Below are positions 7,290 through 18,305 of a DNA stretch of 64,000 bases, piece by piece. The DNA comes from the human T2T-CHM13v2.0 reference genome, Homo sapiens. Location of the stretch: NCBI RefSeq assembly GCF_009914755.1, contig NC_060933.1; one strand, given 5' to 3'. The first letter of the stretch is position 1; each line of letters begins with the position of its first letter. The position numbers were made by a program, and so were the translations under genes. A model generated the notes under the pieces. That model ran no database searches. It had not been told where the DNA came from and worked only from the letters and a program-made list of their open reading frames with translations.

Positions 7290-10200
7290 CATTCCGTATG
7301 ATTCCATTCCATTGCATTCTATTCCATTCCATTCCCCTGCACTCAGGTGGATTCCATTCTATTCCATTCCATTCCATTCCATTCCATTCCATTCCATTGA
7401 AATCGAGTTGATTCCATTCCATTCTATTCCATTCAATTCCATTCCATTCCATTCTATTCTGGTTAATTCCATTGCATTCCATTCCATTCCCTTCCATTCC
7501 ATTCCATTCTATTCCATTCCATTCCATTCTATTAGGGTTAATTCCATTCCATTCCATTCCATTCCATTCCATTCCATTCCATTGCAATCGAGTTGATTCC
7601 ATTCCATTCTATTCCATTCCATTCCATTCAATTCCATTGAACTCGGGTTGATTCCATTCCATTCCATGCCATTCCATTTCATTCCAATCCATTGCCTTCC
7701 ATTCCATTCCATTCCTCTGCACTCGGGTTGATTCCATTCCTTTCCATTCCATTCCATTCCATTCCATGCCATTCCACACGGGTTGATTCCATTACTTTCC
7801 ATTCCATTCGAGTAGAATCCATTCCATTCGATTCCATTCCATTCCATTCCATTCCATTGCTCACGGATTCATTGCATTCCATTCCATTCCATTCCATTCT
7901 ATTCCATTTCATTCCATTTCTTTCCATTCCATTCTCTTCCGTACCATTCCATTCCATTCCATTCCACTTCATTCCATGCCATTCCACTCGGGTTTATTCC
8001 ATTCCTTTCCATTCCATTCGGGTTGAATTCATTCCATTCCATTCCATTCCATTCCATTCCATTGCACTCGGGTTGATTCCATTCCATTCCATTCCATTTC
8101 ATTCCATTCCCTTCCATTCCATTCCCTTCCATTCCATTCCATTCCATGCCATTCCACTCGGGTTGATTCCATTCCTTTCCATTCCATTCCAGTTGAACCC
8201 ATTCCATTCTATTCCATTCCATTCCATTCCATTCCATTCCATTGCACACGGGTTCATTCCATTCCAATCCATTCCATTCCATTCCATTCCATTCCATTTC
8301 GTTCCATTCCATTCTATTCCTTACCATTCCATTCCATTCCATTCCCTTCCATGTCATTTCACTCGGGTTTATTCCATTCCTTTCCATTCCATTCCGGTTG
8401 AATCCATTCCATTCCATTCCATTCCATTCCATTGAACTCGGGTTGATTCCATTCCATTCCATGCCATTCCATTTCATTCCATTCCATTCCATTCCGTTCC
8501 ATTCCATTCCATTCCTTTCCGTTCAATTCCATTACATTCGGATTGATTCTTTTTAATTCCCTTACACTCAATTACATTCCATTCCATTCGGGTACTTTCC
8601 ATTCCATTCCATTCCATTCCTCTGCATTCTATTGCACTCGGGTTGATTGATTCCATTCCATTGCATTCCATTCCATTCAGGATGATTCCATTCCATTGTA
8701 TTCCCTTCCATTCCATTCCCCTGCACTCGTGTTGATTCCATTCCTTTCCATTCCATTCCATTCCGTTCCATTCCATTCCATTACATTCGTACTGATTGTA
8801 CTCAATTCCCTTACACTCCATTACATTCCATTCCATTCGGGCTGTTTCCATTCCATTACATTCCATTCCACTCCATTCCATTGCAGTCAGGTTGATTCCA
8901 TTCCATTCCATTCCATTTCATTCCATTCCATTCCATTTCGTTCCATTCTTTCTATTCCTTAACATTCCATTCCGTTCCATTCCATTCCATTCCATGCCAT
9001 TCCACTCGGGTTGATTCCATTCCTTTCCATTCCATTCGGGTTGAATCCATTCCATTCCATTCCATTCCATTCCTTTCCGTATGATTCCATTCCATTGCAT
9101 TCCATTCCATTCCATTCACCTGCACTCGGGTGGATTCCATTCTATTCCATTCCATTCCATTCCATTCCATTCCATTCCATTCCATTCCATTCCATGCCAT
9201 TCCATTCCATTCTATTCGGGTTAATTTCATTCCATTCCATTCCATTCCATTTCATTCCATTCCATTCCCTTTCATTCCATTCCATTCCTTTCCATTCCAT
9301 TCCATTGAAATCGAGTTGATTCCATTCCATTCCATTCCATTCCATTCCATTCCATTCCATTCCATTCCATTCCGTTCCAATGCATTCCATTCTATTCAGG
9401 TTAATTCCATTCCATTCCATTCCATTCCATTCCATTCCATTCCATTCCATTCCATTCTATTAGGGTTAATTCCATTCCATTCCATTCCATTCCATTCCAT
9501 TCCATTCCATTCCATTTCAATCGAGTTCATTCCATTCCATTCCATTCCATTCCGTTCCATTCCATTCAATTCCTGATGATTCCCTTCCATTTCCTTCCAT
9601 TCCATTCCATTCCCCTGCACTCGGGTTGATTCCGTTCCATTCCATTCCATTCCATTCCATTCCATTCCATTCCATTCCATTCCATTTCGTTCCATTCCAT
9701 TCTATTCCGTACCATTCCATTCCATTCCATTCCATTCCATTCCATTCCATTCCATTCCATGCCATTCCACTCGGGTTGATTCCATTCCTTTCCATTCCAT
9801 TCGAGTTGAACCCATTCCATTCCATTCCATTCCATTCCATTCCTTTCCATTCCATTCCATTTCGTTCCATTCCATTCTCTTCCGTAGTATTCCATTCCAT
9901 TCCATTCCACTCCATTCCATGCCATTCCACTCGGGTTTATTCCATTCCTTTCCATTCCATTCGGGTTGAATTCATTCCATTCCATTCCATTCCATTCCAT
10001 TCAATTCCATTACATTGCACTCGGGTTGATTCCATTCCATTCCATTCCATTTCAATCCATTCCCTTCCATTCCGTTTCATTCCATTCCATTCCATTCCAT
10101 TCCATGCCATTCCACTCGGGTTGATTCCATTCCTTTCCATTCCATTCTGGTTGAACCCATTCCATTCCATTCCATTCCATTCCATTCCATTGCACACGGG

Positions 10201-10620
10201 TTCATTCCATTCCATTCCATTCCATTCCATTCCATTCCATTCCATTCCATTTCGTTCCATTCCATTCTATTCCTTACCATTCCATTCCATTCCTTTCCCT
10301 TCCATGCCATTTCACTCGGGTTTATTCCATTCCTTTCCATTCCATTCGGGTTGAATCCATTCCATTCCATTCCATTCCATTTGATTCCAATCCATTGAAC
10401 TCGGGTTGATTCCATTCCATTCCAAGCCATTCCATTTCATTCCATTCCATTCCATTCCATTCCATTCCATTCCGTTCCATTCCATTCCATTACATTCGGA
10501 TTGATTCTTTTTAATTCCCTTACACTCCATTACATTCCTTTCCATTCGGGTAATTTCCATTCCATTCCATTCCATTCCACTGCATTCTATTGCACTCGGG
10601 TTGATTGATTCCATTCCATT
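7290..10620 (+). repeat. ~1.9-kb-offset direct duplication in the left arm
   Basis: ATTCTCTTCCGTA 7931/9874, GGTTGAATTCATT 8021/9964, ATTGAACTCGGG 8431/10394, GGGTTGATTGATT 8640/10598, CTATTAGGGTTAA 7528/9457. Confidence 0.75.
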
Positions 10621-10759
10621 GCATTCCATTCCATTCCATTCCCCTGCTCTCGGGTTGATCCCATTGCATTGCATTCCATTCCATTCCATTCCATTCCATT
10701 CCATTCCGTTCCATTCCATTCCATTCCATTCTGTTCAGGTTAATTCCATTCCATTCCAT

Positions 10760-16750: not shown

Positions 16751-16770
16751 TTCCATTCCGTGTGCAATGG
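16751..16770. other. Satellite strand-inversion breakpoint
   Basis: ...ttccattccattCCGtgtgcaatggaatgg...: CATTC repeats switch to GGAAT repeats within about 10 bp and no foreign sequence is inserted. ORFs 16537..17025(+) and 16473..17231(-) switch from IPFHS to MEWNG here. Confidence 0.97.
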
Positions 16771-18305
16771 AATGGAATGGAATGGAATGGAATGGGTTCA
16801 ACTAGAATGGAATGGAAAGGAATGGAATCAACCCGAGTGGAATGGCATGGAATGGAATGGAATGGAATGGAATGGAATGGAAAGAAATGGAATGGAAGGG
16901 AATGGATTGAAATGGAATGGAATGGAATGGAATCAACCCGAGTGCAATGTAATGGAATTGAATGGAATGGAATGGAATGGAATGGAATGAATTCAACCCG
17001 AATGGAATGGAAAGGAATGGAATAAACCCGAGTGAAATGGCATGGAATGGCGTGGAATGGAATGGAATGGAATACTACGGAATAGAATGGAATGGAACGA
17101 AATGGAATGGAATGGAATGGAATGGAATGGAATGGAATGGAATGAACACGTGAGCAATGGAATGGAATCGAATGGAATAGAATGGAATGGAATGGATTCA
17201 ACTCGAATGGAATGGAAAGGAATGGAATCAACCCGAGTGGAATGGCATGGAATGGAATGGAATGGAATGGAATGGAATGGAATGGAATGGAACGGAATGG
17301 AATGGAATCAACTCGATTGCAAAGGAATGTAATGGAATGGAATGGAACGGAATTAACGCAAATAGAATGGAATGGAAAGGAATGGAACGGAATGGAATGG
17401 AAAGGAATGGAATGGAATAAATCTGAGTGCAGGGGAATGCAATGGAATGGAATGCAATGGAATGGAATGGAATGGAATGCAATGGAATCACCTCGATTGC
17501 AATGGGATGGAATGGAATGGAATGGAATGGAAGGGAATGGAATGGAATGGAATTAACCTGAACAGAATGGAATGGAATCGAATGGAATGGAATGGAATGC
17601 AATGGAATGGAATCAATCAACCCGAGTGCAATAGAATGCAGAGGAATGGAATGGAATGGAATGGAATGGAATGGAATGGAATGGAATGAAATGGAATGGC
17701 AGGGAATGGAATGGAATCAACCCGAGTGCAAAGGAATGGAATGGAATGGAATGGAATGGAATGGAATGGAATGGATTCAACCCGAATGGAATGGAAAGGA
17801 ATGGAATAAACCTGAGTGGAATCGCATGGAATGGAATGGAATGGAATGGAATGGAATGGTACGGAATAGAATGGAATGGAACGAAATGGAATGGAATGGA
17901 ATGGAATGGAATGGAATCAACCTGAGTGCAATGGAATGGAGTGGAATGGAATGTAATGGAATGGAAACAACCCGAATGGAATGGAATGTAATGGAGTGTA
18001 AGGGAATTGAATACAATCAATCCGAATGTAATGGAATGGAATGGAACGGAAGGGAATGGAATGGAATGCAGTGGAATGGAATCAAACCTAGTGCAATAGA
18101 ATGGAATGGAATGGAATGGAATGGAATGGAATGGAATGGAATGGAATGGATTGGATTCAACTCAAATGGAATGGAAAGCAATGGAATCAACCCGAGTGGA
18201 ATGGCATGGAATGGAATGGAATGGAATGGAATGGAATGGTACAGAATAGAATGGAATGGAATGAAATGGAATGGAATGGAATGGAATGGAACGGAATGGA
18301 ATGGA

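What the first reader, a model, noticed from the sequence alone, without database searches (positions are those of the whole stretch)
9860..18290. The first 1.5 kb after the junction is a shuffled inverted patchwork of left-arm modules, not a simple mirror
Seen: 16758-17100 is the reverse complement of ~9860-10198 (GGAATACTACGG 17069 vs CCGTAGTATTCC 9882; GGAAGGGAATGGATTGAA 16894 vs TTCAATCCATTCCCTTCC 10051). 17300-17570 inverts the module at 16150-16415, also found at 10730-10975. 17690-18290 inverts ~10975-11580 (GGCAGGGAA vs CCCTGCC 11561; GAGTGCAAAGG vs CCTTTGCACTC 11531; CAAACCTAGTGC vs GCACTAGGTTTG 11186). The order is not colinear and the copies carry substitutions. Inference: a real, older inversion within one subarray rather than a perfect fold-back artefact.
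Basis: seen in the sequence. Interest (0 to 1): 0.7.

Follow-up and report, generated by a model that had tools for sequence, protein, structure and literature searches.

The report
One satellite flip, copied 83 times
This is a point in the giant satellite block of human chromosome 9 where the repeat flips direction; the apparent shuffling beside it is an ordinary 2.4-kb repeat unit read from a different starting point, and the same flip junction occurs 83 times in the block, likely copied from one old event.

Summary
The window is chr9q12 HSat3 with one strand switch, at 16759/16760 (2-bp microhomology). The three inverted pairs are real (98.5, 94.8 and 98.6% identity without gaps, better than nulls), and there is no palindrome (mirror identity 74-79%). 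But all of 16760-18290 aligns colinearly, with zero jumps and 98.2% identity, to a junction-free tandem run of 2.42-kb units at chr9:68.94 Mb. The unit order is A-B-C1-D-C2. The inverted arm crosses the unit boundary (D-C2-A), and the 94.8% pair is a paralogue match (C2 vs C1). The junction 25-mer occurs 83 times on chr9 (52.3-76.4 Mb), in both orientations. Four junction families (83, 52, 30 and 20 copies) give 185 of at least 221 switches, in line with the published 'over 200'. No reciprocal junction was found, so a one-ended fold-back origin is about as likely as a two-break inversion whose partner was lost. The switches are known. I did not find their descent from a few junction sequences in print, but I could not see the supplements.

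The parts
1..16759 (+). HSat3 left arm, C-rich (CATTC) strand on +
   Evidence: the 24-mer listed for HSat3B5 in PMC4022460 is read at 11284
16751..16775 (.). Head-to-head strand-switch junction 'A1' (break 16759/16760, CC microhomology at 16758-16759); 83 copies on chr9
16760..18290 (-). 1.53 kb of a 2.42-kb nested tandem unit, colinear with an intact unit (reads D, C2, A towards the junction)
   Evidence: 0 jumps, 26 substitutions in 1481 vs L029
16760..17292 (-). Module A, cut at its end by the junction; unbroken homologue at 9715-10200
17293..17650 (-). Module C2, the unit's internal paralogue of C1
   Evidence: 17300-17570 is 98.5% to L029 C2 and 94.8% to L029 C1
17667..18290 (-). Module D, holding an unbroken homologue of the left-arm break site
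9700..11650 (+). Direct copy A-B-C1-D of the same 2.42-kb unit in the left arm
   Evidence: colinear with L029, 45 substitutions in 1909
13351..14300 (+). Further C1-D copy of the unit
   Evidence: 0 jumps vs L029
16051..16759 (+). C1 and first half of D, ending at the left-arm break
   Evidence: 0 jumps vs L029
16011..16034 (+). Rare variant marker 'U' (125 copies genome-wide), found at set distances on both arms of A1 copies
18293..64000 (-). G-rich-on-+ HSat3 of another lineage, with recent 6.2-7.1 kb direct units; 17640-22900 also lies on the opposite arm of the A1 copy at chr9:68.26 Mb
   Evidence: 99.5% over 4972 bp

Best explanation
The switch at 16759/16760 is one of 83 chr9 copies of the same head-to-head HSat3 junction, likely formed once, and the 1.5 kb after it is a colinear piece of an ordinary 2.42-kb nested tandem unit that only looks shuffled because it crosses the unit boundary. 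Shown: the unit is A-B-C1-D-C2 with C duplicated inside it; the left arm breaks in D and the right arm at the end of A, joined at a 2-bp CC microhomology; the junction is repeated in both orientations; one 5-kb flank sits on the right arm here and on the left arm of another copy. Inferred, about 0.9: one founding join inside a small 2.42-kb-unit subarray was spread by the unequal exchanges and large duplications that grew the array. Inferred, about 0.7: crossovers between the oppositely oriented arms swapped flanks and flipped copies without making new junction sequence. Inferred, about 0.5: the founding event was a one-ended, off-centre fold-back (an inverted duplication with a spacer of a kilobase or more) rather than a two-break inversion. 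No function is implied; this is structural history of heterochromatin.
For: Zero-jump alignment to junction-free L029, cost 96 vs at least 270 for 29 of 29 other right-arm windows. L029 period 2408-2423 bp, with adjacent units 99.7% alike. Two patch-specific markers recur more than 12 kb from any A1: 24 of 90 and 24 of the first 100 of 128 hits. Junction 25-mer 36+ and 47-, control 0, all at chr9:52.3-76.4 Mb. One of the two markers lies within 3.5 kb on the right arm in 55 of 64 A1 copies covered by both lists. Flank swap: 24 substitutions in 4972 bp. For a one-ended origin: no reciprocal; 110 of at least 111 tail-to-tail switches are placed, and the four junction types whose arms I read (B1, B2, B3, one more) do not carry the missing halves; marker U lies within 1.5 kb on the left arm in 44 of 65 copies, within 4.2 kb on the right arm in 25 of 65, and on both in 12.
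Against: A1 is 83 of at least 110 head-to-head switches (75%), not nearly all as first suggested; at least 25 others are uncharacterised. The patch is not universal. Of 11 other copies whose right arm I read, 6 keep it (L004, L006, L008, L030 whole or nearly so; L005 and L007 with an internal deletion), 2 leave it at about +900, and 3 diverge or carry deletions within 500 bp. Marker U also recurs every 5-10 kb in junction-free runs, so its presence on both arms does not prove an inverted duplication. A reciprocal junction could have been deleted or processed by more than 30 bp; seven minor tail-to-tail junctions were seen only as matched text. Many of the 83 copies are not independent of CHM13's recent multi-megabase duplication (the window's copy equals L004 with 0 substitutions in 3296). 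No reads and no second genome were examined.
Confidence: 0.85

Rival explanations
1. The same facts, but the founding event was a classical two-break inversion inside the 2.42-kb subarray. Its tail-to-tail partner was later lost or overwritten by deletions across it, which gave the present tail-to-tail families. The confidence given is for this origin step only.
For: Both breaks lie in one unit family and each arm holds the other's unbroken site. Deletion across a junction seems able to make a new one: junction A2 (2 copies) has 1500 bp of left arm nearly identical to window 7521-9020, and a B1-derived junction is seen at 75.37 Mb. Marker U recurs in tandem runs.
Against: No reciprocal with up to 1 mismatch (the 20 hits are another family) or with a 0-30 nt gap. 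The arms of B1, B2 and B3 are not the missing halves.
Confidence: 0.4
2. One reading: the 1.5 kb was stitched from scattered left-arm modules by serial template switching when the junction formed (FoSTeS/MMBIR-like; names recalled).
For: Against the window's left arm alone the patch needs 2-3 jumps, and its residual cost is the lowest or nearly so of the windows tested.
Against: It needs 0 jumps against L029, which has no switch and runs intact through the break site. Direct controls jump as often. The junction-free run could in principle descend from a right arm, but it holds the unbroken A-to-B join and the full unit several times.
Confidence: 0.04
3. Fold-back or chimeric-read assembly artefact.
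For: Four copies are 100% identical over 301 bp, and CHM13's chr9 duplication needed two traversals of a graph loop (PMC9186530).
Against: No palindrome. The copies carry their own substitutions and different flanks. Other haplotypes show about 129 switches each (10.64898/2026.09.03.749043), and 1,738 older reads matched both HSat2,3 strands (PMC4022460). At most the copy number in the duplicated part could be off.
Confidence: 0.02

Closest known systems
Inversion breakpoints (strand switches) of the chr9 HSat3B5 array (Altemose et al., bioRxiv 10.1101/2021.07.12.452052; passages and section 8 read)
   Same: This switch is one of the 'over 200'; my minimum census is 221.
   Different: The passages seen count breakpoints but do not group them by junction sequence. 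Here 185 of at least 221 fall into four sequence families. Tables S6 and S7 could not be seen.
Nested tandem repeats (NTRs) of HSat2,3 (same paper, section 8)
   Same: A multi-kilobase unit built from diverged CATTC, with a period that varies locally: 2.42 kb near A1, 6.2-7.1 kb further right.
   Different: I saw no description of this 2.42-kb unit with its internal C1/C2 duplication; Fig. S10 was not visible.
Strand switches as by-products of array expansion (bioRxiv 10.64898/2026.07.22.740206; passages read)
   Same: Switch number scales with array length (r = 0.90), as expected if junctions are copied with the array.
   Different: That paper calls them randomly placed, stochastic by-products; the sequence data here point to a few founding junctions copied many times.
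ODIRA inverted amplification (PMC4689423; abstract and outline read) and fold-back inversions (recalled)
   Same: Inverted junctions without a reciprocal; B3 and A2 sit on short interrupted inverted repeats (7-bp arms with a 4-nt loop; 16-bp arms with a 7-nt loop).
   Different: A1 shows only a 2-bp microhomology and an offset of a kilobase or more. No inverted triplication with a dedicated partner junction was shown.

Membership tests
HSat3, subfamily B5 (chr9q12) | Diverged (CATTC)n repeat | tested here: met
   TRF period 5 at 75% matches on L029
HSat3, subfamily B5 (chr9q12) | Subfamily 24-mer and chr9 location | tested here: met
   The 24-mer listed beside HSat3B5 in PMC4022460 is read at 11284 (+) and 17973 (-); all junction copies are on chr9. 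No full k-mer classification was run.
chr9 HSat3 inversion breakpoint (strand switch) | Switch of CATTC polarity inside the array | tested here: met
chr9 HSat3 inversion breakpoint (strand switch) | Listed in the published breakpoint table | not testable with these tools
   bioRxiv supplements are closed; the journal version and the review were not held
Nested tandem repeat | Multi-kb unit repeated head to tail | tested here: met
   period 2408-2423 bp, 7 substitutions in 2404 between neighbours
Two-break reciprocal inversion | Reciprocal junction joining the two missing halves | tested here: not met
   processing beyond 30 nt or later loss is not excluded
Perfect fold-back artefact | Colinear near-100% palindrome centred on the switch | tested here: not met
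   mirror identity 74-79%, perfect arm at most 2 bp
Complex templated junction (FoSTeS/MMBIR; features recalled) | Several novel template switches next to the breakpoint | tested here: not met
   0 jumps against L029
Off-centre fold-back / inverted duplication | Both arms derive from one locus, offset by a spacer | tested here: inconclusive
   U marker on both arms in 12 of 65 copies, but U also recurs in tandem runs
ODIRA-type amplicon | Short interrupted inverted repeat at the junction and inverted triplication | tested here: inconclusive
   A1 has a 2-bp microhomology only; any opposed HSat3 arms can pair; triplication was not tested

The most novel reading that the evidence does not exclude
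The 200-plus 'inversions' of the largest human satellite array are not 200 events. Four founding junctions account for about 84% of the switches. The dominant head-to-head one arose once as an off-centre fold-back in a 2.42-kb-unit subarray with no reciprocal, and it was then spread and re-oriented by recombination between the inverted arms, so that junction 25-30-mers date and trace the growth of 9q12.
Probability: 0.4. Interest if true: 0.55.

Novelty: new member of a known kind. Interest (0 to 1): 0.35.

Why it matters
The flagged patchwork itself is ordinary. The census behind it changes how the chr9 strand mosaic is read: breakpoint counts measure amplification, not inversion rate. Four 21-30-nt junction words are absent elsewhere in the genome (all hits on chr9, controls 0). 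They could count switches from short reads, anchor alignments in an array that inversion callers skip, and order its expansion. Inference: opposed arms give a standing substrate for recombination that flips blocks without new junctions, and any transcript reading through a switch would be self-complementary.

Tried and rejected
Megablast of two junction copies timed out on the low-complexity DNA; I replaced it with edit-distance and jumping alignments. Counting best-hit jumps in sliding windows was noisy, but the patch was no different from controls (8.7 per kb vs 7.3-13.3 in 10 left-arm windows). TRF cannot see the 2.42-kb period (longest period 500). B2 as the reciprocal was rejected on its flanks. 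B1 as a staggered reciprocal was rejected: its left arm leaves the D path after about 80 bp and its right arm is not B. B3 and the 64.84 Mb junction were rejected likewise. 'A1 is nearly all head-to-head switches' was overturned once B3 was added: 25 B-B adjacencies. The hairpin at the junction (z -10.65) is not evidence of anything special, since any two opposed arms pair and no control junction was folded. An offset histogram of A1 positions did not resolve the large duplications cleanly. Long flanks of 60 further A1 copies were not obtained, so arm comparisons rest on 11 other copies plus marker positions. Earlier scan notes were not available. Nine literature searches found no junction-family analysis. 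Most hits were seen as listings only; the Science version and the 2022 review were not held, and bioRxiv supplements, where such an analysis could stand, were closed.

Full report
Setting. The window is HSat3 throughout, with CATTC on + up to 16759 and GAATG on + from 16760. It lies at chr9:68,076,001-68,140,000. The 24-mer listed for subfamily HSat3B5 in PMC4022460 (passages read) is present on both arms. This array is published as holding over 200 inversion breakpoints (bioRxiv 10.1101/2021.07.12.452052; passages and section 8 read) and about 129 switches per haplotype in a pangenome set (10.64898/2026.09.03.749043; passages read).

Check of the observation. The three inverted pairs align at 98.5% (5 substitutions in 331), 94.8% (14 in 271) and 98.6% (8 in 576), with only whole-pentamer gaps. 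Same-length right-arm windows did as well against 9001-16759 in 0 of 151, 2 of 152 and 0 of 150 cases. There is no palindrome: the perfect arm is at most 2 bp, mirror identity is 74-79%, and the longest exact inverted match is 161 bp. From 16760 to about 18250 most 250-bp windows match the left arm best; from 18260 most match the rest of the right arm. But 11 left-arm windows aligned directly to the rest of the left arm jump 1-7 times (0-4 at the higher penalty), so non-colinearity is not special to the junction.

What the patch is. Two variants private to the patch occur 128 and 90 times on chr9. Of these, 24 of the first 100 listed and 24 of 90 lie over 12 kb from any copy of the junction, several at 2.4-kb spacing. 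One such run (L029, chr9:68,943,001-68,948,600) is single-stranded in polarity, has a period of 2408-2423 bp with neighbours 99.7% alike, and passes intact through the site where our right arm is cut. All of 16760-18290 aligns to it with zero jumps (26 substitutions in 1481); 29 of 29 other right-arm windows cost at least 270 against 96. The unit order is A-B-C1-D-C2. Window 9700-11650 is a colinear A-B-C1-D copy (97.6%). The inverted arm reads D-C2-A across the unit boundary. The 'shuffle' is therefore a phase shift in a nested tandem repeat.

The junction. The left arm breaks in D and the right arm at the end of A; comparison with the unbroken sites shows two shared bases, CC. A 301-bp query across it gave 40 full or near-full matches among the 40 candidates scored of 1518, the window's own included, at 89-100%. 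The 25-mer occurs 83 times with up to 1 mismatch (36+, 47-; control 0), all between 52.3 and 76.4 Mb. Eleven other copies differ from ours by 0-6 substitutions in the 150 bp left of the break. One of the two patch markers lies within 3.5 kb on the right arm in 55 of 64 copies covered by both lists. Of the 11 other copies read, 6 keep the patch (2 of them with an internal deletion), 2 leave it at about +900 and 3 diverge within 500 bp. The copy at 57.47 Mb equals ours over 3296 bp, consistent with CHM13's recent multi-megabase HSat3 duplication (PMC9186530; passages read), so copy number is inflated in this genome. Window 17640-22900, on our right arm, matches the left arm of the copy at 68.26 Mb at 99.5% over 4972 bp. 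I infer an exchange between oppositely oriented arms.

Census of switches. Reading 140 kb beyond the window showed two copies of a tail-to-tail junction B1 and a head-to-head junction A2; these have 30 and 2 copies. A search for the predicted reciprocal found 0 exact and 20 one-mismatch hits, and the 6 whose flanks I read form another family, B2. A gapped search found none. A generic search gave 7 more chr9 sites and 3 on other chromosomes. Bisection of three intervals found family B3 (52 copies, including the partner upstream of this window at 67.845 Mb) and one further junction. Ordering all 195 sites leaves 1 A-A and 25 B-B adjacencies, so there are at least 221 switches (110 head-to-head, 111 tail-to-tail). 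A1 is 83 of 110, and the four families are 185 of 221. My earlier reading that A1 was nearly all head-to-head switches was wrong. Family membership of most sites rests on the pattern alone.

Mechanism. Shown: the unit structure, the break positions, the microhomology, the copy number and the shared flank on opposite arms. Inferred: one founding join, spread by array expansion (about 0.9), and flank swaps by recombination between the arms (about 0.7). The founding geometry is open. For a one-ended off-centre fold-back (about 0.5): no reciprocal was found although 110 of at least 111 tail-to-tail switches are placed; the arms read for B1, B2, B3 and one more are not the missing halves; and a rare marker sits within 1.5 kb on the left arm in 44 of 65 copies, within 4.2 kb on the right arm in 25 of 65, and on both in 12 (first 100 of 125 hits). 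For a two-break inversion with a lost partner (about 0.4): that marker also recurs in junction-free runs, and A2, whose last 1500 bp of left arm match window 7521-9020 (identity falls off further out), suggests that deletions across a junction can make new ones. B3 and A2 sit on short interrupted inverted repeats, reminiscent of ODIRA (PMC4689423; abstract read); A1 does not.

Novelty. The switches, NTRs and the duplication are in print, and a 2026 preprint calls the switches by-products of expansion (10.64898/2026.07.22.740206; passages read). Nine searches showed no grouping of the breakpoints by junction sequence. The journal version, the review and the bioRxiv supplements were not visible and may contain it. 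Verdict: the flagged patchwork is ordinary; the junction-family census is a modest, testable addition. Interest 0.35.

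Noticed in passing
L074:693-710 and L075 near 2883 (chr9:61,043,392 and 67,844,944): Tail-to-tail junction family B3, 52 copies, sits on an 18-nt quasi-palindrome (7-bp arms, 4-nt loop) formed from the commonest HSat3 module.
   Followed up: partly
chr9:68,236,269 (L018) and 57,614,462: Head-to-head junction A2 with 16-bp arms and a 7-nt loop; its last 1.5 kb of left arm matches window 7521-9020, so it may be a deletion derivative of an A1 copy.
   Followed up: partly
chr9:68,212,652 and 68,245,641 (L016, L019): Two near-identical B1 junctions 33 kb apart, either side of A2; strand blocks of 23.6, 9.4 and 14 kb.
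   Followed up: partly
window 40900-64000: Recent direct units of 6.2-7.1 kb with exact matches up to 780 bp, much younger than the repeats of the left arm.
   Followed up: no
chr9 about 55-59 Mb vs 65.5-69.6 Mb, and 52.3-54.1 Mb vs 61.0-62.9 Mb: Junction copies pair at offsets of about 10.6 Mb and 8.7 Mb, tracing large duplications in the array.
   Followed up: partly
chr9:49.2-49.3 Mb and 51.3-51.4 Mb: Clusters of the C-module motif with no A1 junction nearby; a possible home of the 2.42-kb lineage.
   Followed up: no
chr7:58,746,830 and 59,010,650; chr17:21,960,997: Tail-to-tail CATTC switches on other chromosomes; the two chr7 sites are reverse complements of each other.
   Followed up: no
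L054 near 2600 (chr9:64,836,672): A further tail-to-tail junction type whose copy number was not counted.
   Followed up: no
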